Shown here in pieces: positions 19,735 through 45,079 of a stretch of 64,000 nt of DNA. Position numbers and translations under genes: made by a program. Under the pieces are notes generated by a model. The model worked only from the letters and a program-made list of their open reading frames with translations, was not told where the DNA came from and did not search any database. Origin of the DNA: Candidatus Woesearchaeota archaeon (GTDB lineage: Archaea; Nanobdellota; Nanobdellia; Woesearchaeales; GW2011-AR9); the NCBI GenBank assembly GCA_018696595.1, contig JABHQW010000002.1, positions 38,420 through 102,419 of the forward strand. The letters run 5' to 3'. Every line of letters begins with the position of its first letter. Positions within the stretch are counted from its first letter, which is position 1.

Positions 19735-19929
19735 ATGAGTAAAACAAAAAAAGAGTTGACAATAGGACTTCTAAAGAAAGACACAGATGGTTTGACAATT
19801 ATTGAGATTGCAAATAAGCTAAAAGTTTCTCGGAACACTGTTCCCGTTATATTGGCAGAACTTAAAGGGGAAGGCAAGATTCGTATTAGGCCAGTTGGTA
19901 AAGCAAAACTTCATTATTGGAAAAAATGA
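19735..19929 (+). CDS. Small winged-helix/HTH transcriptional regulator
   Basis: LLKKDTDGLTIIEIANKLKVSRNTVPVILAELKGEGKIRIRPVGKAKLHYW; stop overlaps the next ATG (ATGA). Confidence 0.85.
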   Translation: MSKTKKELTIGLLKKDTDGLTIIEIANKLKVSRNTVPVILAELKGEGKIRIRPVGKAKLHYWKK

Positions 19930-32760: not shown

Positions 32761-33120
32761 ATGGCTGAGAAACGAGCAGTATTAGGATTAATTGAGAAAA
32801 TAGTAGTCTTTGGCCCAGATAATAATGAAGAAAAAGTTATCGCTAGAATTGATTCTGGAGCTACTGCATCTTCAATCGACTTCAAATTATCTGCAAAACT
32901 GGGTCTAGGGCCAATTACAAGAACAAAAATCGTTAAATCTGCTTCTGGTGTTAAAAGAAGACCAATTATCATTGTTAAAGTTAGAGTTGGAAAGAAGGAA
33001 ATTGAAGCCGAATTTACTTTAGCAGATCGGGCACATATGACTTATCCTGTTTTAATTGGTCAAAATATTCTTCAGGAAGGGAATTTCTTAATTGACCCGA
33101 ATAAAGGTGGTAAAAAATGA
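32761..33120 (+). CDS. RimK-associated retropepsin-like protease (RimB / ATP-dependent Zn-protease family)
   Basis: ARIDSGATASSID, EFTLADRAHMTYPVLIGQNIL; overlaps the rimK start. Confidence 0.88.
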   Translation: MAEKRAVLGLIEKIVVFGPDNNEEKVIARIDSGATASSIDFKLSAKLGLGPITRTKIVKSASGVKRRPIIIVKVRVGKKEIEAEFTLADRAHMTYPVLIGQNILQEGNFLIDPNKGGKK

Positions 33121-34208
33121 AAGCTGCTGTAATCTCTTTAGGTAGTACAAGTTCTCAAATGGTGGCTGAATCCATGAAAAAATATTTCAAAAAAGTTGAC
33201 ATGATCCAATTAAAAGAAATTGAAGTTAGCATGGGGAAAGACGGCGGAATTCTTTATCAAGGCGAGCCTATGAAGAATTACGATTGTATTTATGTTAAAG
33301 GTAGTTTTCGTTACGCTAACTTATTGGCATCAATTGCTAACTTACTTGAAGGAAAAGTCCCTTACATGCCTATTGCAGGAAGTGCATTCACTATTGTTCA
33401 TAATAAATTATTAACTCATCTGGCTTTACAACAACATAATATTCCTATGCCTAAAACTTATGTTTCTTCTACAGTTGAAGCTGCTAAGGAATTACTTGAC
33501 AAAGTTAATTATCCAATTGTGATGAAGTTTCCTGAAGGAACACAAGGCAAGGGTGTGATGTTTGCAGATTCTAAAAGTTCTGCCGCTTCTTTGTTAGATG
33601 CATTAGTGGCTTTAAACCAACCGTTCATTATTCAAGAATATATTGAAACTGGTGGTTGTGATGTAAGGGCTTTAGTTGTTGGTGGCAAAGTAGTGGCCGC
33701 AATGAAACGTAAAGCACAGAAGGAAGAGAAACGTTCAAACATTCATGCTGGTGGCACTGGTGAATCTGTTGAATTAACACGGGAATTAATTAATATTGCA
33801 TTGGATACAGCTAAAGCATTGAAAGTAGACGTTTGTGGTGTAGATATTTTAGAGAGTCCTCTTGGTCCATTAGTTATTGAAGCGAACATTTCTCCAGGAT
33901 TGCAAGGGTTAAGTAAAGCTGTTGATGTAGATGTTCCTAACGAAATTGCTAAACATTTATTTTTAGAAACTGAAGCAATAGTGAAAAAGAAAAAACGTGT
34001 TGAAGAAAAGAGAGCAATGGAAGAAATGAAGTTGGATGATTTGAGTGAAAGGATGCCACAGCAAGAAATTATTACTAATTTACAATTTCGTGGAGAAAGG
34101 ATTTTACTTCCAGAAGTTGTTACTAAATTATGTAAGTTCAATGACCGTAAAGAGTATACTTTGAAAGTTAAGAAAGGTAAGTTAGAGTTGGAAGAGTTCA
34201 AGATTTAG
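33117..34208 (+). CDS. rimK: RimK-family ATP-grasp amino-acid ligase with C-terminal AbrB-like extension
   Basis: NKLLT..L..H.IPMPKT, YPIVMKFPEGTQGKGV, IIQEYI, DVRALVVGG, RSNIHAGG, GVDILE, IEANISPG. Confidence 0.92.
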   Translation: MKAAVISLGSTSSQMVAESMKKYFKKVDMIQLKEIEVSMGKDGGILYQGEPMKNYDCIYVKGSFRYANLLASIANLLEGKVPYMPIAGSAFTIVHNKLLTHLALQQHNIPMPKTYVSSTVEAAKELLDKVNYPIVMKFPEGTQGKGVMFADSKSSAASLLDALVALNQPFIIQEYIETGGCDVRALVVGGKVVAAMKRKAQKEEKRSNIHAGGTGESVELTRELINIALDTAKALKVDVCGVDILESPLGPLVIEANISPGLQGLSKAVDVDVPNEIAKHLFLETEAIVKKKKRVEEKRAMEEMKLDDLSERMPQQEIITNLQFRGERILLPEVVTKLCKFNDRKEYTLKVKKGKLELEEFKI

Positions 34209-34274
34209 GAAGTTCATCACATACTTTTATAAATAAAAAAATAATTCTTTATACATAAAAGAGGTAGATATATA

Positions 34275-36155
34275 TTGGCTCAACTGAAAAAAGTATTAAG
34301 TTATCCTGCGATTCTTCTAATTACAATTAACTCGATTATGGGTACGGGTATTTTCTTTTTGCCAGCAGTTGGTGCAGGAGCAGCAGGACCAGCTTCACTT
34401 TTATCCTGGATAATCCTTTCTATAATCTCGATCTATATCGCCATGTGTTTTGGAGAACTTGCTTCTATGTTTCCAAAGTCTGGAGGGATTTATGAATATT
34501 GTAAACAGGCTTACGGAAGATTCTTTTCATTCATTATTGGTTGGATGACTGTTGTTGCTGGAAACGTTACGATTGCCATGCTGGTGGTTGGGGCCGTACA
34601 ATATTTGCTTCCATTAGGGGCCATTTGGATGAAAATAGCCATTTCATTATTATTCATTTTTGCTTTCAATTACATCGCTTTCAAAGGGATGAAAACTAGT
34701 GCAGTAATGTTAGTAGTTTTTGCTTTCATTACTTTAGCAGCAATTCTAGGTTTAACAATTCCAGGATTATTCAAATTTAATGTTGGAAACTTTAAACCAT
34801 TCTTTATTTTCCCAGCATCTTCGTTAGTGCTAGCGATATTTCTAATAGCAGAAACTTTTTTTGGTTGGGAGACTGCTACGTTCTTAGCAGAAGAAACTAA
34901 AGATGGCCAGAGAGTTATGCCTAAAGCATTAATTTGGGGAACAGTAATTATTGCCATAATTTGTATTCTATTTGTAGTTACTTCTTTAGGGGTTATGCCT
35001 TGGAACATTTTTGGAAGTTCCGCTACCCCATTAACAGATTTAGGAATTTTACATTATGGTGGATTGGGTGGAGATATTTTCACGATTCTTGTTTACTTAG
35101 CAATTATTGGTTCTGTGGCAGGGTGGGTTGTTTCTGCCCCAAGATTATTATTAGCAATGGCGAAAGATAAATTGTTCTTAGACCATTTTGCTAAAATTCA
35201 TAAAAAGAATTTAACACCTCATCGAGCTATTCTTTTTCAAACTATTCTGACAACAATTCTGGTTATTGTTGGTGCGGGTTCTTATACTACAATGTTACAT
35301 TTACTAGTGCCCATAGTTTTGGTGGCATATTCATTTGTTCTGGTTAGTGTAGTTGTGTTAAGATATAAAAAACCAGACCAGAAAAGATTTTATACTGCTC
35401 CTTTTGGTAAAGTTGGTCCAATAATTATTGCGTTATTTATGTTATTTTTAATTTATATGTGGATGACTCATACTCCTGGTGCATTAGATATTGTTAAAGT
35501 GGCTCTGTCACTAATTTTCTTGGGTGTTCCTTTATATTTCCTTGTAGAGATGTATCATGATGCTAAAGCCATTTATGGAGTTAACGAAAAGTTATCTTAC
35601 ATCTTGGTTTTGTTTGAAAACATTTTCTTTCCAATCTCAATAAAGAAAAGAATTCTTTTGATGCTTGGTGATGTAAAGAATAAAAACATCTTGGAATTTG
35701 GTTGTTCGGTTGGAACTTTAACTAGAAAACTTTCTCAGAAAGTTTTACCTAAAGGAAGAGTTTATGCTTTTGATTTTATTGAGCATAATGTTAGGGTTGC
35801 TTTATCTCATATGAAGAGACACGGACATGTTAACTTTTACCACCATAAACATTTAGATCATTTTAAAACAACTATCAAATTGCCGAAGATGGATGCTTTA
35901 GTTTCTACTGGTTCTTTGTCTTATATGCAAAAGCCACAAAATGTTTTGAACCATTTAGGTAAGCATGTCAAGAAAGGTGGCCGAGTTGTATTCTTAGATT
36001 ACGATCAGTTCTTTTTCTTTATTCCTAATGTGCCCTGGATTAGTGATGAGAAAAAACTTAAAAAGATGTTTAAGATTGCTAGTTTTGAAGTTGAAGTTAT
36101 TAAGAAACGCGGATTGTTATGGAGACATATCTTTATTCATGGTAAGAAAGTTTAA
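34275..36155 (+). CDS. APC-family amino-acid permease fused to a C-terminal class I SAM-methyltransferase-like domain
   Basis: INSIMGTGIF, ELASMFPKSGGIY, FFGWETATFLAEE, PRLLLAMAKD; then ILEFGCSVG, VYAFD, MDALVS, VKKGG. Confidence 0.9.
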   Translation: MAQLKKVLSYPAILLITINSIMGTGIFFLPAVGAGAAGPASLLSWIILSIISIYIAMCFGELASMFPKSGGIYEYCKQAYGRFFSFIIGWMTVVAGNVTIAMLVVGAVQYLLPLGAIWMKIAISLLFIFAFNYIAFKGMKTSAVMLVVFAFITLAAILGLTIPGLFKFNVGNFKPFFIFPASSLVLAIFLIAETFFGWETATFLAEETKDGQRVMPKALIWGTVIIAIICILFVVTSLGVMPWNIFGSSATPLTDLGILHYGGLGGDIFTILVYLAIIGSVAGWVVSAPRLLLAMAKDKLFLDHFAKIHKKNLTPHRAILFQTILTTILVIVGAGSYTTMLHLLVPIVLVAYSFVLVSVVVLRYKKPDQKRFYTAPFGKVGPIIIALFMLFLIYMWMTHTPGALDIVKVALSLIFLGVPLYFLVEMYHDAKAIYGVNEKLSYILVLFENIFFPISIKKRILLMLGDVKNKNILEFGCSVGTLTRKLSQKVLPKGRVYAFDFIEHNVRVALSHMKRHGHVNFYHHKHLDHFKTTIKLPKMDALVSTGSLSYMQKPQNVLNHLGKHVKKGGRVVFLDYDQFFFFIPNVPWISDEKKLKKMFKIASFEVEVIKKRGLLWRHIFIHGKKV

Positions 36156-36198
36156 ATACTATTAAACAATAATTATTATTACAAAAAGAGGTAATAAA

Positions 36199-38532
36199 GT
36201 GGTGAGAAACAAATTAGACAAAATAATACAACTATTAATCCCTCCCTCATTAGTTCTCCTTCTTGTTGTTACTATCATTGAACTTTTTTATGGTGTTGGT
36301 AAATCTATGTCAATATTTATTGATATTTTTGATGTCTATGTGATTATTATTTTTGCTATTGATTTGTATTACCGATGGTTTGAAACTCCACGCTTTTGGC
36401 CTTATATTAAAAAACACATTCTTGATATTATTGCTACTATCCCTTTCAACTTAATTTTTTTAGGAATTGAAGCACTCGCTTTAATAAGAGCGTTAAGGGG
36501 TGTTCGTATTATTGCTAGAATTGTTAAGTTTGCACGATTTGCACGTTATGGTCGTTTATTAAGATTATTAAGATTTGGTGCAAGAGCACCGAGATTTATT
36601 AGGGTAAGAAAGCAAGTAAAAAAAGGTAAAATTCGTAAAGTTCAACCGCACGAAAAAGAGTTGAAGAAAACATTGAGTTTTAAAGTAATCCTCCTAATCA
36701 CAATTAACTCCATTATGGGTACTGGTATTTGGTTCCTTACTTCTGCAGGAGCTAAACATGCTGGTCCCGCTTCTTTAGTTTCTTGGGGTGTATTGTCTTT
36801 AATTTCTGTTTATATTGCGATGTGTTTTGGAGAATTAGTTTCTATGTTTCCAAAAGCAGGTGGCGTTTATGAGTTTGCTAAACAAGCTTACGGTAGATTT
36901 TGGAGTTTCGTTATTGGTTGGACCACATCTATTGCTGGAAGTGTAACTATTGCTATGCTTCTTTTAGGTGCGTTACAATATCTTATTCCTCTTAAATATT
37001 CTTTTACCTATATCCCTATTGCAATTTTTTTAATTATTGCTTTCAGTTATGTAGCATTTAGGGGGATGCAAACTTCAACCGTTGTTTTGGTGACCTTTGC
37101 AATCATTACTTTAACTGCGGTTGTTTCAATTATCATTCCTGGATTTATTAATTTTAAACCGGGCAATCTTGATCCTTTCTTTGTTTTCCCAGCAATGAAT
37201 GTCTTGTTAGCAATATTCTTTATTGCGGAAACTTTCTTTGGTTGGGAAAGTGCTATTTTTCTTTCTGCTGAAACAAAAAATCCTTCTAAAATAATGCCTA
37301 AGGCGTTAATTTACGGAACTCTTATTATTGCGGTTTTGTCTTTCTTTTTAGCTCTTACAGCTATGGGTACTATTCCCTGGGCAGAATTTTCAGAATCTGT
37401 AGCACCACTAAAAGATTTAGGAAGCGTCCATTTTGGAAATATTGGGGGGATAATCTTTGCAATATTGATTTTTATTTCTGTAATTGGTGCTACTGCAGGT
37501 TGGATTGTAACTGCACCAAGATTATTAATGTCTATTGCTGAAGATAAATTATTTTTCACTCAATTTGCAAAAATTCATCCCAAACATAAAAGCCCTTACG
37601 TTTCAATAATTTTTCAAGTTTTAGTTGTTTCAACTTTAGTTATTGTTGGGGCTGGTTCGTATGAAACTTTATTGCATATGCTAATTCCTTTAATTTTGGT
37701 TGTCTATTCTGCTGTCTTGTTAAGTCTCGTTATTTTACGTTTTAAAAGACCAGAATTAAAACGACCTTACAAAGTTATTTTTGGAAAAGTTGGCCCTCTT
37801 ATCACGATGCTGTTTATGGTTTTTCTATTAATAATGTTTATTAAAGAAACTCATAGTGCTTTTGACATCTTGAGGATTTCTGCTGGTTTAGTTGCTTTTG
37901 GTATCCCTGCTTATTTCGCAATTGAATTATTTTATGATAAGAAATATGTTACTCTTAGAAGAAATTTGATGGCTAAGTTATCACATCATTATAATAAATT
38001 TCCTTTAACTAAAATGACATTTAATAAAATAATTTCTTTAGTTGGACCATTTAATAAGAAATCTTCTCTTATGGTTTATAATTCTCCAATGGGGGCTTTT
38101 ACTCAAAAAATTGTTAAATCTAAAATTCCTTTCCGTAAAATAATTATTGCCAATCAGTCAAAAGAAGAAATTAAAGTTTTCAAAGAAAAAATTTCTTCTG
38201 AAAATAGAAAACATATTGGTGTGCATTTGTTGAGAAAATTAAGTGTCCCTGTAAATGTGGGGAAAGTAAATGCTTTTGTTTCATTTAATAGTTTAGGACA
38301 TGTTAAAGACGTAGCTGGGTTTGTTCACAATGTAAAGAAAGTTCTTAATAAAAAAGGCAAGTTCTGTTTTTATGTTAAAAACAATTTTCTGAATATGACT
38401 CCTAATGCTTTATTAGTTGAAGATAAGAAAAAGATGCTGGCTTTGTTTAAGAAAGAAAAATTAGTGGTAACTTATAACAAAAAAAGAAGATTGTTTAAGA
38501 CAGAAATATTTATTTGTGGTAAAAAAGTTTAA
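36199..38532 (+). CDS. Voltage-sensor domain + APC permease + degenerate methyltransferase-like domain (triple fusion)
   Basis: S2 IIFAIDLYYRW, S3 HILDIIATIPF, S4 RALRGVRIIARIVKFARFARYGRLLRLLR; APC motifs INSIMGTGIW, PKAGGVY, FFGWESAIFLSAE; MTase-fold tail. Confidence 0.88.
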   Translation: MVRNKLDKIIQLLIPPSLVLLLVVTIIELFYGVGKSMSIFIDIFDVYVIIIFAIDLYYRWFETPRFWPYIKKHILDIIATIPFNLIFLGIEALALIRALRGVRIIARIVKFARFARYGRLLRLLRFGARAPRFIRVRKQVKKGKIRKVQPHEKELKKTLSFKVILLITINSIMGTGIWFLTSAGAKHAGPASLVSWGVLSLISVYIAMCFGELVSMFPKAGGVYEFAKQAYGRFWSFVIGWTTSIAGSVTIAMLLLGALQYLIPLKYSFTYIPIAIFLIIAFSYVAFRGMQTSTVVLVTFAIITLTAVVSIIIPGFINFKPGNLDPFFVFPAMNVLLAIFFIAETFFGWESAIFLSAETKNPSKIMPKALIYGTLIIAVLSFFLALTAMGTIPWAEFSESVAPLKDLGSVHFGNIGGIIFAILIFISVIGATAGWIVTAPRLLMSIAEDKLFFTQFAKIHPKHKSPYVSIIFQVLVVSTLVIVGAGSYETLLHMLIPLILVVYSAVLLSLVILRFKRPELKRPYKVIFGKVGPLITMLFMVFLLIMFIKETHSAFDILRISAGLVAFGIPAYFAIELFYDKKYVTLRRNLMAKLSHHYNKFPLTKMTFNKIISLVGPFNKKSSLMVYNSPMGAFTQKIVKSKIPFRKIIIANQSKEEIKVFKEKISSENRKHIGVHLLRKLSVPVNVGKVNAFVSFNSLGHVKDVAGFVHNVKKVLNKKGKFCFYVKNNFLNMTPNALLVEDKKKMLALFKKEKLVVTYNKKRRLFKTEIFICGKKV

Positions 38533-38605
38533 TGAAAGTTTTATAAATAAAATCGTTTTTAAGAAATAAAGAGACTGATTCTGATGTTGGTGGAGGGAAG
38601 TAAAA

Positions 38606-38956
38606 ATGGTAAAATTAACTTATATTGAAAAAAAAGGATTTACTCAGAACAACCGTTATGACGCTGGAGTTCAAGCTATTAAGGCTACTGGTGTATTGGA
38701 AGCTTTTTATAATTTATTGCCTAGTCATGATCAAAGAGGATTTAATATTTCTTCTGGTATCGTTGATACTCTCCCTTCTTACTTTGCGGTTCCTATCAAA
38801 CGAAAATTAGAAAAAAGTTTTAACCCTAATATACATCCGCAGGATCCAGTAATTGCGGTTGCTGATTACAGATTAAATGAAAGAATTAATCTCAATCCAG
38901 AAGAAAACCAAACTCTTGATAAATTAATGGAAGGAATAAGTATGGTGCCATTGTAA
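38606..38956 (+). CDS. Hypothetical protein
   Basis: 116-aa ORF with GGAGGGA RBS and upstream TTTATAAA. Confidence 0.6.
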   Translation: MVKLTYIEKKGFTQNNRYDAGVQAIKATGVLEAFYNLLPSHDQRGFNISSGIVDTLPSYFAVPIKRKLEKSFNPNIHPQDPVIAVADYRLNERINLNPEENQTLDKLMEGISMVPL

Positions 38957-38964
38957 TCTTTCAT

Positions 38965-39543
38965 CTACTTTTTATTTTTGTTTTTCTTCAAATTTCTTTT
39001 CTCTAGAACTTTTGTATGTTTCTTCTGATACTCTGGTTTGTGTCTATGAACATGATGTGTGACTTTTGTAAACAATCTTGATTTGGTAACAATTCTTAAT
39101 GATCGAGCAGCTAATCTAATATACTTAGCAATTTTCTGACTTCTACTTAAGGCAGAGATGCCTTTTCTTGCTTCTAATGACTCATGTAATATTGCTTGAC
39201 TAATGGTGTATTTTCCAGCAGTTGCAGCGACTCGCCAAACTCGACTTACAATAGTAAATACAATCACTAGGGGGACAACTGCGACTATATCTAACCAGTA
39301 ACTTTTGAAAAAGAATTTCCAGGTTTTAGCTTTGATTGCCAAGAAGATCAAATCAATGACAAAGATGACGATGATAAAGTAATCTAATGCCACAATCGGT
39401 GTATGGTAAAGTTCAACAAAATGATGAACTGATTCGTTAAAGTACCCGATGACTTCTAAAACGATAATTATCAGCAAACCCACAATCGCTGCTGGAATTA
39501 ACTTGGCATTCCAATGTTCAACCTTTTCCCAAAAATTATTCAT
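38965..39543 (-). CDS. Stand-alone voltage-sensor-like (S1-S4) membrane protein with no pore domain
   Basis: Likely start MNNFWEK (39543); S2 IIVIFVIDLIF, S3 YWLDIVAVVP, basic KIAKYIRLAARSLRIVTKSR segment, His/Lys-rich tail. Confidence 0.8.
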   Translation of the reverse strand: MNNFWEKVEHWNAKLIPAAIVGLLIIIVLEVIGYFNESVHHFVELYHTPIVALDYFIIVIFVIDLIFLAIKAKTWKFFFKSYWLDIVAVVPLVIVFTIVSRVWRVAATAGKYTISQAILHESLEARKGISALSRSQKIAKYIRLAARSLRIVTKSRLFTKVTHHVHRHKPEYQKKHTKVLEKRNLKKNKNKK

Positions 39544-39636
39544 AGAAGAAAGTAATTTTTTTAGGTATATAAATTTTGTCCTGTGATAACTTTTATAAAT
39601 GATAGAACAATAGTTAACTATGAAAAGAGGCATGAG
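39544..39636. promoter_or_regulatory. Divergent promoter region shared by the VSD-only gene and APC paralog 3
   Basis: TATATAAA at about 39567 and TTTATAAA at about 39592; AAGAGG RBS before the ATG at 39637. Confidence 0.5.
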
Positions 39637-41712
39637 ATGAAACTTAAACAGTTCTGGCAGTATTTAGTTACGGATAGTTCTAAGAAGAAGAAAGTTACAA
39701 CTCTAACTTCTAATAAATCTATTTCTACTAAAACTGTAACTGTAAAAAGGCATCAATCTACCGCAAAAAGACTTCTCTCATCACCGGTTGTACTATTTAT
39801 TTTAATTAACTCTATCTTAGGGAGCTCATTATTTTACCTCCCCAGCCTAGGAGTTGTTTCTTCTGGGGCGGCATCACTTATTGCTTGGATTCTATTATTT
39901 GCTCTTTCAACATTTATGATGCTTTACGTTTCTGAATTAATTACTTTACATCCTACCTCAGGTGGAACTTACGAGTTCTGTAAACGAGCTTACGGAAGAC
40001 AAATCTCTTTTTTTGCTGGCTGGATTATTTGGATTGCTGGAAATTTCGGAATGGCTCTTAATGTAGTGGCGGCTTCTGAATACTTTATCCCAGATACTTA
40101 TTCTTACTACTTCATTTTACGACTAGTTTTTGCAGCAATCTGGATTCTTGTTCTTAACTTTATGGCTTTTAGAGGAATAGATGCGGGAGCAACAATGTTA
40201 GTTGTTTTCGGAATTTTAACTGTGGTTGTAGTGATTGCAATGATCTTACCTTCTTTCATTGACATTCCTACTTTGTTTCAAGGAAGTTTAACCAGCCCAT
40301 TTCAATTAGAAATGATGCAACCTTTCTTCCGTCATACTGGATTAGGAATATTTAGTTTCTTACTTCTCTCGGTTTTCTTAATCGCGGAAGCATTCTTTGG
40401 TTTTGAAACAGTAAGTTATATGGCTAACGAAGTTAAAGATAAAAAGAATTTACCAAAAATAATGATTTCTGCAATGGTCATTTGTGGTGTTATCATGACG
40501 ATTTATCTGTTAAGTTCGTTGGGGACAGTTTCTTATCATGATTATGTTAGTGATGCTCGGCCTTGGGCAGTACAGGCATTAAACAATATGGGCAGTTTAG
40601 GACAGAACTTTGTTGTTTTTGGTATGTACCTAGTAATTATTGGTGCGGCAGCAGCGTGGCCAATTGCTAGTTCAAGATTGATTAGGGCGATGTCTAGCGA
40701 TAAATTGTTTTTGAAACATTTCTCAAAGTTACATCCAAAACACAAATCTCCTTATCGTGCAGTTTATTTTCAAACAATCATAATTTTCTTATTTGCTTGG
40801 TTTATTTTTCGTGGATATATTGTTAAATGGGGTGATCCATATCGGACCATTTACTTAATCTACTTATTACTAAGTTTAATTGTACTATCACTTGTCCTTT
40901 TTGCAGTTCCTATCTTGAGGAAGAAAGAAGCACATTTGAAAAGAACATTTAAGGCGCCATTACCTTGGCTTGGTCCAATATTCTTTGTTGGTCTTTTTGT
41001 TTTCATGATTATTAATTGGATCAGAATTGAAGGTGGTGTAGCAACGTCTGTAATTTTAATGGCAGGGTCATTTGTTGTTTTAGGAATTCCATTTTATTTC
41101 TTAGTGGAAATGTTTTACAATCCTAAGGCTATCATCTCAGTTAATGAAAGGTTATCTTATTTTGTAGTTATTGGAGAAAAATTATTTTTTCCTTTTACTA
41201 TTAGAAACAGATTGATTAAAGACCTAAAAACTTTGCGAGGGAAGTCTGTTTTAGAGTATGGTTGTTCTTTCGGAACACTAACTCGGAAGTTGGCAAAGAA
41301 AGTTACTTCTACTGGAAAAATTTACGCGACAGATTTATCTTTACACAAAGTTAAGATTGCTGATCAAAGAACAAAACGAATCAAGCATGTTTTTGTTCAT
41401 CATCATCCTCATTTGAGTGATTTCAAATTGAAATTGCCTCAGAAGGTTGATAACGTGCTCTCTGTGGGGATGTTATCTTACATGCAGAATCCTTTGAAAG
41501 TATTGTCAAGTTTAGCGAAGCGAGTAAAAAGGGGTGCTGACGTAGTATTCTTGGATTATGATAAATTCTTTTACTTTATTCCTAACGTGAAGTGGATTGA
41601 AGAAGATAAAAAGCTAATTGCTTTATTCAAACGAGCGGGTTACAAAGTCAAAGTAGAAAGAAAACGTGGTTTATTATGGACTTATGTTATTATTAGTGGA
41701 AAAAGAGTTTAA
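39637..41712 (+). CDS. APC-family permease fused to a C-terminal class I SAM-methyltransferase-like domain (paralog 3)
   Basis: INSILGSSLF, PTSGGTYEF, FFGFETVSYMANE, SRLIRAMSSD; VLEYGCSFG, IYATD, VDNVLS, VKRG. Confidence 0.9.
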   Translation: MKLKQFWQYLVTDSSKKKKVTTLTSNKSISTKTVTVKRHQSTAKRLLSSPVVLFILINSILGSSLFYLPSLGVVSSGAASLIAWILLFALSTFMMLYVSELITLHPTSGGTYEFCKRAYGRQISFFAGWIIWIAGNFGMALNVVAASEYFIPDTYSYYFILRLVFAAIWILVLNFMAFRGIDAGATMLVVFGILTVVVVIAMILPSFIDIPTLFQGSLTSPFQLEMMQPFFRHTGLGIFSFLLLSVFLIAEAFFGFETVSYMANEVKDKKNLPKIMISAMVICGVIMTIYLLSSLGTVSYHDYVSDARPWAVQALNNMGSLGQNFVVFGMYLVIIGAAAAWPIASSRLIRAMSSDKLFLKHFSKLHPKHKSPYRAVYFQTIIIFLFAWFIFRGYIVKWGDPYRTIYLIYLLLSLIVLSLVLFAVPILRKKEAHLKRTFKAPLPWLGPIFFVGLFVFMIINWIRIEGGVATSVILMAGSFVVLGIPFYFLVEMFYNPKAIISVNERLSYFVVIGEKLFFPFTIRNRLIKDLKTLRGKSVLEYGCSFGTLTRKLAKKVTSTGKIYATDLSLHKVKIADQRTKRIKHVFVHHHPHLSDFKLKLPQKVDNVLSVGMLSYMQNPLKVLSSLAKRVKRGADVVFLDYDKFFYFIPNVKWIEEDKKLIALFKRAGYKVKVERKRGLLWTYVIISGKRV

Positions 41713-41717
41713 GAAAT

Positions 41718-42782
41718 TTATTTTCTTTTCTTTTTCTTTACTACTTTTTTTTTAATAACTTTCTTGGCAGTTTTCTTTTTGAGAGTTTTCTTCTTTACTG
41801 GTTTCTTTTTAGCAACTTTTTTTACTGTCTTTTTCTTTGTTACTTTCTTTTTAGCTACCTTTTTCTTGACAGGTTTTGTTACAACTTTCTTTTTAGAAGA
41901 TTCTTTCTTACTAAAACTTACACTTTTCTTAGCAGCTAAATTTAATTTCTCTAAATCTTCAACAATATCAGAAGCAATGAAACAGTAACCTTTTTTTCTC
42001 TTCAATAATTGGTCGCCAACCCAGCCATTAACATAACTTGCCGCAACTGCACTTTTAAACAAGTCTCTTGTCTTAGATAAAAATCCCACTGCTAGACCCG
42101 CTAAAACATCTCCTGTGCCAGCTTTAGTCATTCCTTGATTGCCAGTTCTATTGTAAGCAACTTTATTTCTTGAAATAATTATATCTGTGGCTCCTTTCAG
42201 AAGTAGAACATTATTGTTTTGTAAAAAGTAACGTAAGTTTCCTTGCAGAATATCTGCTTTTTCTTTAGCATTAGCTGATTTTAGTTTTGGTAACAGAAAC
42301 TCTTTGCCACTGTTAGCTAACATCATTTCTAATTCTGCTTCGTGTGGAGTAATGATAGAATTGTTGAAATCTTTAAATGACATTGATTTTAATGCATCAG
42401 CATCAACAACTTTTAATCGTGGTGATTTTCTGATAAAATATTGGCTGAACTTGTCTGCTTTTCTGGTAATACCATTGCCTAAACAAATTGCATCAAATAA
42501 TTCTGCATACTTAACCATTTCTTTTGCGTTTTTAATATTAAAATTACTGCCTTTGATTTTGTGAGTTATTAAATCTGGAGAGTAAGAGTTAATTATCCAA
42601 GCAACCTTTTCTGGGGCTGCAATCGTTACTGAATCACAACCAGCTCTTAGTGCTGCTAATCCTGCAAGGGCTGGAGCACCAACATAATCTTCAGAACCGC
42701 CAATAATTAAGGCATAACCATTTTCTCCTTTAGAAGAATTTTTCTTTCTGTCCATTAACTTTTTCACTTGATTAAGATTCAT
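41718..42782 (-). CDS. nnrD: ADP-dependent NAD(P)H-hydrate dehydratase (YjeF C-terminal domain only) with H1-like Lys-rich tail
   Basis: SSKGENGYALIIGGSEDYVGAP, AICLGNG, VVDADAL, ITPHEAE, LLKGA, GMTKAGTGDVLAG. Confidence 0.92.
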   Translation of the reverse strand: MNLNQVKKLMDRKKNSSKGENGYALIIGGSEDYVGAPALAGLAALRAGCDSVTIAAPEKVAWIINSYSPDLITHKIKGSNFNIKNAKEMVKYAELFDAICLGNGITRKADKFSQYFIRKSPRLKVVDADALKSMSFKDFNNSIITPHEAELEMMLANSGKEFLLPKLKSANAKEKADILQGNLRYFLQNNNVLLLKGATDIIISRNKVAYNRTGNQGMTKAGTGDVLAGLAVGFLSKTRDLFKSAVAASYVNGWVGDQLLKRKKGYCFIASDIVEDLEKLNLAAKKSVSFSKKESSKKKVVTKPVKKKVAKKKVTKKKTVKKVAKKKPVKKKTLKKKTAKKVIKKKVVKKKKRK

Positions 42783-43590: not shown

Positions 43591-43771
43591 GGCCCCATAG
43601 CTTACCCTGGTGGAGCGCCAGTCTTATATGGCAGTGTTCTACACAATCGCAAGACAGCTGGAGGTTCCGGGTTCAAAACAGTTATTTCGCCAACTGGGAG
43701 CGAGAGGCGGCGTAATCTCGCGTTGCTCGCTTAACCCCCTGCGAAAAACTATGAAAGTCCCGGTGGGGCCA
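43591..43771 (+). tRNA. tRNA-Ile(UAU) with two introns (37/38: 43629-43655; 59/60: 43678-43757)
   Basis: Acceptor GGCCCCA/TGGGGCC with A73, CCAGT-CT-TAT-AA-GCTGG, CCGGG-TTCAAAT-CCCGG after splicing; D loop slightly atypical (C15, G21). Confidence 0.8.
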
Positions 43772-43831
43772 TATTTTTTATTTCTTTTACCACAATCTTA
43801 ATAAATCAGTTAAGTTTTTGCAGAACTTAAT

Positions 43832-43924
43832 GCGGGAGTAGTATAGTGGTTAGTATACGGCGTTGCCAATAGCTTTTCGCTAAGTAAAGACGCTGTGACC
43901 TGGGTTCAAGTCCCAGCTCTCGCA
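43832..43924 (+). tRNA. tRNA-Gly(GCC) with canonical intron 43869-43889
   Basis: GCGGGAG/CTCTCGC, CGGCG-TT-GCC-AA-CGCTG, BHB helix TTGC/GTAA. Confidence 0.95.
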
Positions 43925-43959
43925 CTTCATTTTCTAATAAATAAAAAAATAAAAAGAAA

Positions 43960-44358
43960 TTATCTTTGGGCGTAAGCAAATGTTGCTTTCAAGGCCACAA
44001 TTATTGTTGCTGGCACAAACAATGTTAAGATTCCTGTCAACATATTAGTTATTGACGGAGCAACAGCATCAAAAATTCCCACTTGAATTCCTAAGAACGA
44101 GATTAATACTAATACTGTTCCACTAGTTAAGAATCCAGAAATCTCTTCAACTGCAATGTTTAGTAATCCTACTATAATCCCTAATAGAAATACTGTCCAT
44201 AAAATTTCTTTCTGGTAAGCACCAGTAAAACCCAATCCTAATACTATAGCAAGAAACAGCCCAATTAAGAATGACCAACTGCCAACTAAATTTCTACGGC
44301 AATAACTTCCTTCACATTTGACCTGTTTTGCAACTTTTTTTTTCTTTCTTTTAACCAT
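43960..44358 (-). CDS. Small four-TM hypothetical membrane protein
   Basis: ATG at 44358 after GAGGTGA; GSWSFLIGLFLAI..LGIIVGLLNI..E...FL pattern. Confidence 0.75.
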   Translation of the reverse strand: MVKRKKKKVAKQVKCEGSYCRRNLVGSWSFLIGLFLAIVLGLGFTGAYQKEILWTVFLLGIIVGLLNIAVEEISGFLTSGTVLVLISFLGIQVGIFDAVAPSITNMLTGILTLFVPATIIVALKATFAYAQR

Positions 44359-44437
44359 AAATTTCACCTCTTTTTCTCTAGAATTATTTTATGGTATAAA
44401 AAGTTTTATAAATTAGGTGCGTTTCTGCTAAAAGTAA

Positions 44438-44582
44438 CCCTTCATAGTTTAGTGGCTAGAACGTCCGGCTGTAGAAATCGTTTGATTTTGCCATAATGGC
44501 TAGAAATGAAAAACGATCAGCTGTAGTCACCGGAAGATCCCCGGTTCAAATTGTTTTAAACATGAAAGTCCGGGTGAGGGGA
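44438..44582 (+). tRNA. tRNA-Tyr(GUA) with two introns (37/38: 44475-44528; 59/60: 44551-44568)
   Basis: C1-G72 acceptor CCCTTCA/TGAGGGG, A73, TCCGG-CT-GTA-GA-CCGGA, BHB helices CTGT/GTAG and TTCA/TGAA. Confidence 0.93.
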
Positions 44583-44586
44583 CTCA

Positions 44587-44618
44587 TTTGGGAAGAATTG
44601 CGTTTTATTCTTCCCAAA
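44587..44618 (+). terminator. Perfect 12-bp hairpin after tRNA-Tyr
   Basis: TTTGGGAAGAAT-8nt-ATTCTTCCCAAA followed by CTTTT. Confidence 0.6.
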
Positions 44619-44791
44619 CTTTTCTCAATGATTTATTGTTATTTTTAACATATATATTGCACAATCTTCTTTTTAACTAGAAATTACCAAAAGCTTTATA
44701 AACCCCCCATTTAACTATCTTTCAAAATGGCTAAAGATCTTTCTATGAGTAACAATCTAAAAATTTTACTTGTAGATAGTGCTATATGAAT

Positions 44792-44939
44792 GCCCTGGTA
44801 GTGTAGCCAGGTTTAGCATGAAGCCCTGTCGGAAACTTTTACGAAAAGAAAAATTCGTGAGGTTTTTAGAAAGGCTTCGACCCGGGTTCAAATGGGTTGT
44901 AGATGTTATTTACAATCACTGAATGTCCCGGCCAGGGCG
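44792..44939 (+). tRNA. tRNA-Asp(GUC) with two introns (37/38: 44832-44871; 59/60: 44893-44925)
   Basis: GCCCTGG/CCAGGGC, G73, AAGCC-CT-GTC-GA-GGCTT, T-loop BHB TTCA/TGAA. Confidence 0.93.
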
Positions 44940-44974: not shown

Positions 44975-45048
44975 GGGCCGGTAGCTTAGCTTGGAAGAGC
45001 GCCTGACTTTTAATCAGGCGGTCGAGGGTTCAAATCCCTTCCGGCCCG
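44975..45048 (+). tRNA. tRNA-Lys(UUU), intronless
   Basis: GGGCCGG/CCGGCCC, CCTGA-CT-TTT-AA-TCAGG, GAGGG-TTCAAAT-CCCTT. Confidence 0.97.
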
Positions 45049-45079
45049 CTCATATTCAACAAATGGAGAAAAATCAAAA

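What the first reader, a model, noticed from the sequence alone, without database searches (positions are those of the whole stretch)
32761..41712. Candidate undescribed system: RimB-like protease + RimK + three APC-methyltransferase fusions + voltage sensors
Seen: protease-rimK (overlapping), APC-MTase, VSD-APC-MTase', a small ORF, an oppositely oriented VSD-only gene and a third APC-MTase, all within 9 kb. The three permeases are clear paralogs (shared NSIxG, GGxYEx, FFGxE and FFxxxPN motifs). Known: RimK makes poly-alpha-glutamate or glutamylates proteins and Pseudomonas RimB degrades poly-Glu; APC carriers import amino acids. Inference: a membrane-potential- and SAM-responsive amino-acid or peptide acquisition and storage module, plausible for an auxotrophic episymbiont. 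Functional linkage of rimK to the permeases rests on adjacency only.
Basis: partly seen in the sequence, partly recalled or inferred. Interest (0 to 1): 0.85.

Follow-up and report, generated by a model that had tools for sequence, protein, structure and literature searches.

The report
Voltage-sensor amino-acid carriers beside RimK
The genes are real, but they look like two unrelated units. One is an ordinary RimB-like protease plus RimK pair. The other is an undescribed archaeal family of amino-acid carriers fused to a methyltransferase domain, one copy of which also carries a channel-type voltage sensor, something known so far for only one animal transporter.

Summary
Observation confirmed. 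All seven ORFs exist. Corrected starts: voltage-sensor (VSD)-only gene 38965-39543; third permease 39637-41712.

The "one system" reading is not supported.
- The retropepsin-like protease and RimK pair (4-bp overlap) was found in 36 of 40 related genomes, with or without the permeases.
- In this family the permease and VSD genes fill a variable slot between rimK and a NAD(P)HX-dehydratase gene. That slot holds 0 to 3 permeases.
- Outside the family, rimK is never next to a permease.
- A same-genus genome has four other genes between rimK and permease 1.

What is notable is the carriers.
- They have a BasC/LAT/AdiC-like APC core plus a cytoplasmic class-I methyltransferase-fold domain. There are more than 1,100 homologue clusters, apparently confined to one DPANN order (Woesearchaeota-type).
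- Paralogs 1 and 3 keep their SAM-binding motifs; paralog 2 has lost them.
- Paralog 2 has an N-terminal S1-S4 voltage sensor: profile match to KvAP at E 8e-6, a Kv-type charge-transfer centre, and 13 Arg/Lys at mostly every third position.
- More than 120 clusters share this fusion. They form one clade.
- The stand-alone gene is a charge-poor homologue of the sensor. It also occurs without the carriers, and relatives are fused to HPP-family membrane domains.

Function is untested. This scan has already found the carrier fusions in other genomes.

The parts
32761..33120 (+). RimB-like retropepsin-type aspartic peptidase (119 aa), with a DSG motif at Asp31. I treat it as a separate unit together with rimK.
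   Evidence: PF05618 scores 54.2 bits against a cut-off of 27, and other Asp_protease families also match. The NCBIfam RimB and RloA3 equivalog models match only far below their cut-offs (39.7 of 200; 59.9 of 210). The gene sits upstream of rimK in all 16 relatives' loci where this could be assessed.
33117..34208 (+). RimK-family alpha-L-glutamate ligase (363 aa) with a conserved C-terminal extension of about 80 aa that matches no known family.
   Evidence: PF08443 E 7e-47. TIGR00768 rimK_fam scores 199.5 against a cut-off of 143.4, but the S6-ligase, MptN, LysX and CofF equivalog models are all below their cut-offs. Found in 36 of 40 relatives. The extension has no Pfam hit.
34275..36155 (+). 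APC-MT1 (626 aa): APC carrier core (about aa 1-440) plus a class-I methyltransferase-fold domain (about aa 455-626) with intact SAM-binding motifs.
   Evidence: Pfam. Nearest solved structures for the core: BasC 6f2g at E 6e-34, then LAT2 and AdiC. Motif conservation across 114 orthologues. More than 1,130 homologue clusters share this architecture.
36199..36672 (+). N-terminal S1-S4 voltage-sensor domain of paralog 2 (aa 1-158).
   Evidence: Profile of 62 sequences against solved structures: KvAP E 8e-6, HCN1 2e-4. Single sequence against KvAP: E 9e-4. D45-F52-D55 in S2 and D76 in S3 are invariant or nearly invariant. There are 13 Arg/Lys between residues 97 and 135, mostly at every third position. 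In the AlphaFold2 model, S1-S3 have pLDDT 64-77 and residues 82-156 are below 50.
36673..38532 (+). APC core (about aa 159-580) and degenerate methyltransferase-fold tail (about aa 585-777) of paralog 2.
   Evidence: Pfam. The AlphaFold2 model matches BasC 9h76 with TM 0.84 normalised to the target. In this clade (n=115) the SAM-binding positions are replaced: G476 to N in 70%, D500 to N in 59%, G546 to N in 79%, and the DYD motif is lost.
38606..38956 (+). Orphan 116-aa ORF. Probably not part of anything conserved.
   Evidence: No Pfam or NCBIfam hit. No match in 39 relatives. In the same-genus genome G001 there is no room for it between the two flanking genes.
38965..39543 (-). Stand-alone VSD-like membrane protein (192 aa from Met31). 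It is a homologue of the fused sensor but has a charge-poor S4 region and a conserved GQAILHE.LEA insert.
   Evidence: hhalign against the fused sensor: probability 99.5%, E 2e-22. At least 157 homologue clusters. Conserved D54-F61-D64 and D85. Ion_trans 21.6 bits, below the cut-off of 25. Fold searches were inconclusive.
39637..41712 (+). APC-MT3 (691 aa from the likely start): a variable basic N-terminal tail, an APC core, and a methyltransferase domain with intact SAM-binding motifs. Transcribed divergently from the VSD-like gene across 93 bp.
   Evidence: Pfam. Alignment of six orthologues. Motifs. Intergenic sequence with an AGAGG ribosome-binding site and TATA-like boxes on both strands.
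41718..42782 (-). NAD(P)HX dehydratase (Carb_kinase family). This is the far synteny anchor of the variable slot, not a functional part of it.
   Evidence: PF01256 E 2e-43. It lies next to the slot in 13 relatives' loci, including four with no permease between it and rimK.

Best explanation
The 9-kb stretch holds two functionally separate units that share only a conserved chromosomal position.

Unit 1 is a two-gene operon: a retropepsin-like aspartic peptidase and a RimK-family alpha-L-glutamate ligase. By analogy with bacterial RimB/RimK, it adds and trims alpha-linked glutamates on an unknown protein, or makes poly-alpha-glutamate. Archaea have no bacterial S6, so the bacterial target cannot apply.

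Unit 2 is a lineage-specific set of three old paralogs of one carrier family. Each has a BasC/LAT/AdiC-like APC core that moves an amino acid or related amine, probably by exchange, and a cytoplasmic class-I methyltransferase-fold domain attached directly after the last membrane helix.
- In paralogs 1 and 3 this domain still binds SAM. I think it most likely acts as a sensor of methyl-cycle state (SAM/SAH) that tunes transport. This organism has MetK and SAH hydrolase but no methionine synthase, so it must import methionine. The main alternative is a true enzyme that methylates the cargo.
- In paralog 2 the SAM site has decayed and the domain remains as a scaffold. An N-terminal S1-S4 voltage sensor has been added. 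It has an unusually long, highly charged S4 and post-S4 helix running straight into carrier helix 1. This would make transport depend on membrane potential, as in animal SLC9C1.

The stand-alone sensor-like gene belongs to a large family of pore-less sensor homologues. These also occur alone, without the carriers, and fused to other membrane domains.

Shown here: domains, homology, motif conservation and decay, distribution, synteny. Inferred: substrate, SAM sensing, voltage gating.
For: Independence of the units:
- RimK was found in 36 of 40 relatives and the carrier fusion in 25 of 40, in all four combinations.
- The peptidase-rimK pair is present in all 16 assessable loci.
- In family f1 the order is peptidase-rimK, then 0 to 3 carriers with or without the sensor gene, then the dehydratase. 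Four genomes (G003, G012, G016, G019) have rimK 0.4-1.3 kb from the dehydratase with no carrier between. Two genomes have only the sensor gene there.
- In G007 the carriers stay with the dehydratase and are not next to rimK.
- Outside f1 there was no adjacency: G039 has a 15-kb gap, and G030 and G032 have nothing within about 5-6 kb.
- G001, of the same genus, has four genes between rimK and carrier 1: one unknown, an HTH_10 regulator, a DUF5652 protein and a GNAT acetyltransferase.
- Each unit has its own TATA-like box and AGAGG(T) ribosome-binding site. This is read from the sequence only.

Carrier core: BasC E 6e-34; Foldseek BasC, AdiC, GkApcT and LAT1 with target-normalised TM 0.75-0.84. 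The best NCBIfam match is TIGR00909, TC 2.A.3.6.

SAM domain:
- In paralog types 1 and 3, motif I and the ribose-binding acid are conserved at 83-100%.
- Profile against solved structures: plant phosphoethanolamine N-methyltransferases at E 4e-12.
- MetK and SAH hydrolase are present; MetE and MetH-type domains were not found in a genome that is 97% complete.
- There are precedents for APC-fold carriers with cytoplasmic ligand-binding tails. KimA with c-di-AMP and NKCC appear among the fold matches.

Sensor:
- KvAP profile hit, charge-transfer-centre spacing identical to the Kv pattern, and 13 periodic basic residues.
- More than 120 fused clusters, forming one clade with SH-aLRT 100.
- SLC9C1 is stated to be the only known transporter regulated by a voltage sensor (PMC10620092).
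Against: - Inside family f1, rimK lies next to a type-3 carrier in at least six genera. A functional tie there, such as glutamate supply, cannot be excluded by synteny alone.
- The S4 region of the sensor is modelled with pLDDT below 50. Pfam Ion_trans stays below its curated cut-off.
- Nothing shows that this organism uses changes in membrane potential as a signal.
- About ten positions are strongly conserved in the intact methyltransferase domains and lost together in paralog 2: DYD, W588, W616, H518 and the SAM motifs. This fits an enzyme turning into a pseudoenzyme at least as well as it fits a sensor.
- Presence of the carriers did not track presence of MetK among the 40 relatives.
- No expression data are available.
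Confidence: 0.6

Rival explanations
1. One reading: peptidase, RimK, the three carriers and the sensors form one co-regulated module. It imports amino acids (for example glutamate) under control of voltage and SAM, and stores or processes them as poly-glutamate.
For: All genes sit within 9 kb. Five lie on one strand with short gaps of 66 and 43 bp. rimK is within 3 kb of a carrier in 8 of the 11 f1 genomes where this can be judged.
Against: - RimK and the carriers occur independently across 40 relatives.
- The adjacency is limited to one family, and the dehydratase gene on the other side is equally syntenic.
- The sensor-fused paralog is unlinked from rimK in most genomes: G004, G007, G011, G016, G017, G020, G021, G023.
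- Four other genes intervene in a same-genus genome.

Confidence: 0.1
2. The methyltransferase domains of paralogs 1 and 3 are active enzymes that methylate the transported amine or amino acid as it arrives. This would be vectorial methylation that traps or converts the cargo. Paralog 2 is then a pseudoenzyme derivative.
For: - Besides the SAM motifs, DYD after strand 4, H518, W588, W616 and the Tyr in LSYxQKP are conserved at 90-100% in the intact groups and lost together in paralog 2.
- The best solved relatives are small-molecule amine N-methyltransferases: PMT 5wp5 at E 4e-12.
- The domain follows the last membrane helix directly.
Against: - The similarity to PMT covers mainly the SAM-binding core, and the PMT catalytic His and Asp are not conserved (alignment).
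- No acceptor can be named.
- The fold is retained in paralog 2 without its SAM residues, which shows the domain also has a non-catalytic role.
Confidence: 0.25
3. The stand-alone sensor-like protein is the detachable voltage-sensing subunit of the sensor-less carriers 1 and 3. This would be a two-component version of paralog 2.
For: It is homologous to the fused sensor (hhalign 99.5%). It is transcribed divergently from, or lies next to, a carrier in G000, G001, G007, G015 and G023.
Against: - It was found in at least eight relatives with no carrier fusion: G003, G005, G006, G009, G010, G012, G018, G019.
- Its S4 has lost most of its charges and carries a conserved polar insert.
- Relatives are fused to HPP-family or other domains, so its partners, if any, are not specific to these carriers.
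Confidence: 0.15
4. The N-terminal domain of paralog 2 descends from a voltage sensor but no longer senses voltage. It would serve only as a structural, targeting or oligomerisation module.
For: S4 is modelled poorly. Ion_trans is below its cut-off. No Ion_trans match above the curated cut-off was found elsewhere in the genome.
Against: D45, F52, D55 and D76 and the basic residues at 122-135 are invariant or nearly invariant in 62 sequences whose sensor domains are 49-89% identical to the window's. That is the pattern expected for a working charge-transfer centre.
Confidence: 0.2

Closest known systems
SLC9C1 (sperm Na+/H+ exchanger gated by an S4-type voltage sensor and cAMP)
   Same: A pore-less S1-S4 voltage sensor is covalently joined to a secondary carrier, together with a cytoplasmic nucleotide-type ligand-binding domain. 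S4 is long and continues into cytoplasmic helices (PMC6052114, PMC10620092, PMC13095418).
   Different: - The carrier fold is NHE/CPA there and APC/LeuT here.
- The sensor lies after the carrier there and before it here.
- The third domain is a CNBD there and a methyltransferase fold here.
- SLC9C1 is eukaryotic; this protein is archaeal.
- Voltage gating has been measured for SLC9C1 and not here.
BasC / SLC7 LAT, AdiC, GkApcT and ApcT carriers (APC superfamily; TC 2.A.3.6 and 2.A.3.8 types)
   Same: The 12-helix core matches by sequence (E 6e-34 to BasC) and by fold (TM 0.75-0.84). It has a G-T/S-G motif in helix 1 and FFGWE/FFGFE in helix 6.
   Different: None of the solved relatives has a methyltransferase tail or a voltage sensor. 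All NCBIfam equivalog and subfamily cut-offs are missed, so substrate and coupling cannot be transferred.
Pseudomonas RimB/RimK (retropepsin-like Glu-trimming peptidase plus alpha-L-glutamate ligase)
   Same: Same two families and the same tight gene pairing, with a DSG catalytic motif at Asp31. RimB trims poly-Glu and stimulates RimK (PMC11957791).
   Different: Both proteins fall far below the NCBIfam equivalog cut-offs. There is no RimA. The bacterial target RpsF (bS6) does not exist in archaea. This RimK carries an extra C-terminal extension of about 80 aa.
KvAP-type archaeal Kv channel voltage sensor
   Same: It is the best solved match to the fused sensor over S1-S4 (E 8e-6), with the same acidic/Phe/acidic pattern in S2 and Asp in S3.
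   Different: No S5-pore-S6 follows. S4 and its continuation carry 13 basic residues, ending in a conserved A-P-R-F motif that KvAP lacks.
KimA and cation-chloride cotransporters (APC-fold carriers with regulatory cytoplasmic C-terminal domains)
   Same: An APC-fold membrane domain followed by a cytoplasmic domain that binds a small ligand and controls transport. Both appear among the fold matches.
   Different: The tail folds and ligands differ. No methyltransferase-fold tail has been described for them.
Mammalian Slc7a5 (LAT1) and Kv1 voltage-sensor interaction
   Same: A LAT-type APC carrier is functionally coupled to a voltage-sensing domain, with the sensor determining sensitivity (PMC7690953).
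   Different: There the two are separate proteins, and the effect reported is on the channel rather than on transport. Here they form one polypeptide with no pore.

Membership tests
APC superfamily amino-acid/polyamine carriers (PF13520) | Profile match above the curated cut-off | tested here: met
   172, 153 and 148 bits against a cut-off of 27 for the three paralogs.
APC superfamily amino-acid/polyamine carriers (PF13520) | 12-helix LeuT-type fold | tested here: met
   The model of paralog 2 matches BasC, AdiC, GkApcT and LAT1 at Foldseek E 1e-13 to 1e-14, with target-normalised TM 0.75-0.84.
APC superfamily amino-acid/polyamine carriers (PF13520) | Membership of a named subfamily with known substrate (NCBIfam equivalog or subfamily cut-offs) | tested here: not met
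   The best match is TIGR00909 at 215 bits against a cut-off of 557. All others are also below their cut-offs.
Class I SAM-dependent methyltransferases | Profile match above the curated cut-off | tested here: met
   Paralogs 1 and 3 pass Methyltransf_31, _12, _23, _25 and _11. Paralog 2 passes only Methyltransf_11, at 23.7 bits against 21.2, when the tail is scanned alone.
Class I SAM-dependent methyltransferases | Motif I (E/D-x-G-x-G-x-G-like) and the acidic residue at the end of strand 2 | tested here: met
   LE(F/Y)GCSVG and D500 are conserved at 83-100% in paralog types 1 and 3. They are not met in paralog 2, where N replaces G476 and N replaces D500 in most of the clade.
Class I SAM-dependent methyltransferases | SAM binding and methyl transfer | not testable with these tools
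   Needs biochemistry.
S1-S4 voltage-sensor domain (N-terminal half of PF00520) | Profile match above Pfam's curated cut-off | tested here: not met
   19.2 bits (fused) and 21.6 bits (stand-alone) against a cut-off of 25. Some family members do pass, for example P0448 at 29.6 bits.
S1-S4 voltage-sensor domain (N-terminal half of PF00520) | Homology to solved sensors by family profile | tested here: met
   Fused form: KvAP E 8e-6 over S1-S4, HCN1 2e-4. Stand-alone form: only E 0.03 to a bacterial Nav, but 99.5% hhalign probability to the fused form.
S1-S4 voltage-sensor domain (N-terminal half of PF00520) | Charge-transfer centre: acidic, 7 residues, Phe, 3 residues, acidic in S2, plus Asp in S3 | tested here: met
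   D45-F52-D55 and D76 in the fused form; D54-F61-D64 and D85 in the stand-alone form. All are invariant or nearly invariant. The comparison with the Kv1.2 and SLC9C1 pattern rests on PMC13095418 and my own knowledge.
S1-S4 voltage-sensor domain (N-terminal half of PF00520) | S4 with basic residues at every third position | tested here: met
   Fused form: R97, R100, R103, R107, K110, R113, R116, R119, R122, R125, R129, R132, R135. Stand-alone form: only R101, R104 and K111 before a polar insert, so this feature is weak or not met there.
S1-S4 voltage-sensor domain (N-terminal half of PF00520) | Four-helix bundle fold | tested here: inconclusive
   Fused model: residues 82-156 have pLDDT below 50. 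Stand-alone model: pLDDT 78, but S3 and S4 are drawn as one helix. Foldseek found nothing at E of 0.001 or better. The top VIA-align rows are sensors (CatSper Z 8.0, Kv4.2 Z 7.7), but these are within the noise range for helical proteins.
RimK family alpha-L-glutamate ligases | Family profile above cut-off | tested here: met
   TIGR00768 scores 199.5 against 143.4; PF08443 E 7e-47.
RimK family alpha-L-glutamate ligases | Equivalence to S6-glutamate ligase, MptN, LysX or CofF | tested here: not met
   152.9 of 331; 147.9 of 350; 135.9 of 276; 73 of 300.
RimB retropepsin-like peptidase | Equivalog profile above cut-off | tested here: not met
   NF052261 scores 39.7 against 200. PF05618 is met at 54.2 against 27.
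RimB retropepsin-like peptidase | Catalytic D-T/S-G motif and pairing with rimK | tested here: met
   RIDSGA with Asp31. 4-bp overlap with rimK. The pair is conserved in 16 of 16 assessable loci. Catalytic D31 in Pseudomonas RimB: PMC11957791.
SLC9C1-type voltage-gated carrier | Sensor and carrier in one polypeptide with no pore | tested here: met
SLC9C1-type voltage-gated carrier | NHE-fold carrier and CNBD | tested here: not met
   The carrier has the APC fold and the third domain has a methyltransferase fold. This is an analogue, not a member.
SLC9C1-type voltage-gated carrier | Transport gated by membrane potential | not testable with these tools
   Needs electrophysiology or proteoliposome assays.

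The most novel reading that the evidence does not exclude
Paralog 2 is a truly voltage-gated amino-acid carrier. That would be the first such carrier in prokaryotes and only the second kind of voltage-sensor-controlled secondary transporter known. The same pore-less sensor module would then be a general, reusable regulator of carriers in DPANN archaea: fused to APC carriers, fused to HPP-family membrane proteins, and free-standing. The intact methyltransferase tails of the sister paralogs would add a second input, or a cargo-methylating step, linked to SAM.
Probability: 0.3. Interest if true: 0.85.

Novelty: new variant of a known kind. Interest (0 to 1): 0.62.

Why it matters
Voltage sensors are regarded as devices of ion channels. 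The structural paper on SLC9C1 calls it the only known transporter regulated by one (PMC10620092). A recent review states that pore-less, sensor-only Hv channels are not found in bacteria or archaea (PMC13095418).

This window, and more than 120 related clusters, show a sensor with an intact charge-transfer centre joined to an APC amino-acid carrier in tiny marine archaea. Hundreds of free-standing relatives of the sensor also exist. If the sensor works, it gives a small, prokaryotic and probably easily expressed model for how a voltage sensor can drive an alternating-access carrier.

The methyltransferase tail, found on more than 1,000 carrier clusters, is a second uncharacterised feature. 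It could link amino-acid uptake to methyl-group metabolism in organisms that must import methionine.

The RimB/RimK pair is ordinary, except that its archaeal target is unknown.

Tried and rejected
1. SAM import. The archaeal SAM synthetase (PF01941) was not found, which suggested the carriers might import SAM. Rejected: a bacterial-type MetK is present in this genome and in 31 of 40 relatives. Carrier presence does not track MetK presence.
2. Complex prediction of carrier 3 (aa 1-510) with the stand-alone sensor gave no answer (score 0.00, below the mark). This is no evidence either way.
3. Fold searches with the stand-alone sensor model. Foldseek against PDB found nothing at E of 0.001 or better. 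In VIA-align the top rows are channel sensors, but at Z 7-8, which is noise level for helical proteins.
4. RNA evidence for co-transcription. No RNA holder was listed.
5. A weak Ion_trans pore-half match elsewhere in the genome (C7, E 0.006) is a 117-aa membrane ORF. I saw no channel selectivity-filter (TVGYG-type) motif when reading it. Rejected as a split-channel partner.
6. The bacterial sigma-70 promoter and terminator scan found no more sites than shuffled sequence, and it is not suited to archaea.
7. Six literature searches for either fusion found no description. The library lacks most subscription journals, so prior description cannot be excluded.
8. Open-frame length alone is not a proxy for the sensor fusion. 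The 853-aa G030 protein has an extra C-terminal domain and no N-terminal sensor.

Full report
**Observation.**
- A 119-aa peptidase gene (32761-33120) overlaps a 363-aa rimK (33117-34208) by 4 bp.
- Three large permease genes follow: 34275-36155, 36199-38532, and one ending at 41712.
- Between the second and third lie a 116-aa ORF (38606-38956) and an oppositely oriented small membrane-protein gene.
- Pfam confirms the retropepsin-type "Zn_protease" family, RimK, AA_permease_2 in all three large proteins, and class-I methyltransferase families in the first and third. The second has only a weak methyltransferase match. Ion_trans matches to the N-terminus of the second permease and to the small minus-strand protein fall below the cut-off.
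- Two starts need correcting. The minus-strand gene most likely begins at Met31 (38965-39543, 192 aa), as in gene calls and in about 157 homologue clusters. The third permease most likely begins at 39637, with a conserved M-x-L-K-x-F-W start and AGAGG 7 nt upstream.
- The 116-aa ORF is an orphan: no family match, and no match in 39 related genomes.

**Organism.** The window lies in a 1.19-Mb genome of 8 contigs, 97% complete. Its protein relatives are labelled Woesearchaeota or Nanoarchaeota. The DNA recurs in marine and seawater metagenomes from many studies.

**Is it one system?** I searched 40 related genomes with the carrier, RimK and the small sensor-like protein. I then fetched 20 loci and mapped all window proteins onto them.
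- RimK was found in 36 of 40 genomes, always with the peptidase directly upstream where this can be judged. The carrier fusion was found in 25 of 40. All four presence/absence combinations occur.
- Within the window's own family (f1) there is a conserved frame: peptidase-rimK on one side and a convergent NAD(P)HX dehydratase gene on the other.
- The space between holds three carriers (this genus), two (G014), one (G004, G017, G020; G015 with the sensor gene as well), only the sensor-like gene (G009, G010) or no carrier at all (G003, G012, G016, G019).
- In G007 the carriers remain beside the dehydratase and are not next to rimK.
- The sensor-fused paralog lies elsewhere in the genome in most f1 members.
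- Outside f1, rimK is never near a carrier: 15 kb away in G039, and nothing within the fetched windows in G030 and G032.
- In G001, of the same genus, four genes sit between rimK and carrier 1, three of them on the opposite strand: one unknown, an HTH_10 regulator, a DUF5652 protein and a GNAT acetyltransferase.
- Each unit in the window also has its own TATA-like box and ribosome-binding site.
- I conclude that the rimK-carrier adjacency reflects family-level synteny around a variable slot, not an operon. A local functional tie within f1 cannot be strictly excluded, and related genomes are not independent samples.

**The RimB/RimK unit.**
- The ligase passes the RimK-family model but none of the substrate-specific equivalog models. 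It has a conserved C-terminal extension of about 80 aa with no known family.
- The peptidase passes PF05618. It has the DSG motif at Asp31, the position of the catalytic Asp of Pseudomonas RimB. RimB trims poly-glutamate and stimulates RimK (PMC11957791).
- It is far below the RimB equivalog cut-off, however.
- Archaea lack bacterial S6, so the target is open.

**The carriers.**
- The core is most like BasC, the LATs, AdiC, GkApcT and ApcT, by both sequence and fold. It falls below every subfamily cut-off.
- More than 1,130 clusters share the carrier-plus-methyltransferase architecture.
- In an even sample of 201 genomes of the phylum, the tail was found in 66. All of these are marked as the same order.
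- A quick maximum-likelihood tree separates three old groups. Type 3 and the sensor-fused type are each one side of a branch with SH-aLRT support of 100. The fused type sits on a long stem (midpoint root only, careful search not finished).

**The methyltransferase tail.**
- In 114 type-1 and 6 type-3 sequences, motif I (LE-F/Y-GCSVG), the strand-2 Asp, a DYD motif after strand 4, P-N, two Trp and a His are 83-100% conserved.
- In 115 sensor-fused sequences the SAM positions are mostly replaced (G to N, D to N, G to N, DYD lost). The fold and the P-N motif persist.
- The model of paralog 2 shows a confident Rossmann-like tail.
- Earlier-branching members of the fused clade still hit the full set of methyltransferase families. 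This suggests the sensor was gained first and the SAM site decayed later.
- A profile of the intact tails best matches plant phosphoethanolamine N-methyltransferases (E 4e-12), then KsgA and assorted small-molecule methyltransferases. The match covers mainly the SAM-binding core, and the PMT catalytic residues are not kept.
- The genome has MetK and SAH hydrolase but no detectable methionine synthase. Methionine must therefore be imported, and homocysteine cannot be recycled.
- This makes a link between amino-acid exchange and methyl-cycle state plausible but unproven. I favour a regulatory SAM/SAH-sensing role, with a cargo-methylating enzyme as a serious rival.

**The voltage sensor.**
- The first 158 residues of paralog 2 align with the isolated KvAP sensor at E 9e-4 as a single sequence and E 8e-6 as a 62-sequence profile. 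HCN channels are next.
- S2 carries D45, F52 and D55, and S3 carries D76. All are invariant or nearly invariant. This is the spacing of the charge-transfer centre described for Kv, Nav and SLC9C1 sensors (PMC13095418).
- From residue 97 to 135 there are 13 Arg/Lys, mostly at every third position, ending in a conserved A-P-R-F motif just before carrier helix 1.
- The topology fits: four helices in and out, then a carrier whose N-terminus is cytoplasmic.
- Weak points: the S4 stretch is modelled with low confidence, and Ion_trans is below its cut-off.
- An exhaustive profile search found 522 representative clusters. Most are 140-230-aa stand-alone proteins. Some have an HPP-family membrane domain in front of the sensor, and one has a further helix and a 320-aa domain behind it.

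**The stand-alone gene.**
- It is homologous to the fused sensor (99.5%) and keeps the S2 and S3 acidic/Phe pattern.
- Its S4 has few charges and carries a conserved GQAILHE.LEA insert.
- It was found in at least eight relatives that lack the carrier fusion. A dedicated two-component partnership with carriers 1 and 3 is therefore not favoured.

**Comparison with what is known.** The nearest functional analogue is SLC9C1, described as the only transporter known to be regulated by a voltage sensor (PMC10620092). The fold of the carrier, the domain order and the third domain all differ here. Mammalian LAT1 (Slc7a5) modulates Kv1 channels through their voltage-sensing domain (PMC7690953), an intriguing parallel between the same two protein classes. 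I found no paper describing either fusion. Earlier reports of this scan reached the same reading on other genomes.

**Verdict.** The single-system interpretation is not supported. The carrier fusions are real, conserved and uncharacterised, and the sensor-fused paralog is the most interesting element. Function remains inference.

Noticed in passing
Proteins P0406, P0448, P0468: Proteins of about 305-313 aa combine an N-terminal HPP-family membrane domain (PF04982, above its cut-off) with a C-terminal sensor of the same subfamily, including the R-x-P-R-F motif after S4. This is a second kind of membrane-domain/voltage-sensor fusion. Their organisms are unknown.
   Followed up: partly
L030:49-1524 (-), genome G005: A 491-aa protein has the stand-alone sensor type at its N-terminus, followed by one further membrane helix and a domain of about 320 aa that I did not scan against any family library. 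This is another architecture for the same module.
   Followed up: no
L019:7584-7901, L020:8092-8409, L026:6976-7242, L014:9498-9743, L007:3074-3370 (all -): A small DUF5652 membrane protein (81-105 aa) recurs just downstream of rimK in relatives. It was not found in the window's own genome with one of these proteins as query.
   Followed up: partly
window 41718-42782 (-): The NAD(P)HX dehydratase carries a C-terminal tail of about 70 aa made almost entirely of Lys, Val, Thr and Ala repeats (KKKV, KKKT...). Relatives' tblastn matches end near residue 280-288, so the tail is poorly conserved or missing in them.
   Followed up: no
window 19917-30164 (+): A giant 3,415-aa ORF lies just upstream of the region. 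It coincides with a local rise in G+C to 0.39-0.40 at 24-28 kb. I did not examine it.
   Followed up: no
window 33987-34208 (C-terminal part of rimK): The RimK here and in relatives has a conserved C-terminal extension of about 80 aa. It is rich in Lys and Glu and then probably forms a small folded module. It has no Pfam match. It could be the target-recognition part of an archaeal RimK.
   Followed up: partly
L031:3366-5927 (+), genome G030: An 853-aa carrier-methyltransferase fusion has an additional C-terminal domain of about 215 aa after an intact methyltransferase domain, and no N-terminal sensor.
   Followed up: no
window 43591-44939: ARAGORN reports only one tRNA (Lys, 44975-45049) between 30 and 46 kb. 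Earlier first-reader notes claim several intron-bearing tRNAs just upstream of it. If those are real, they escape the standard tool.
   Followed up: no
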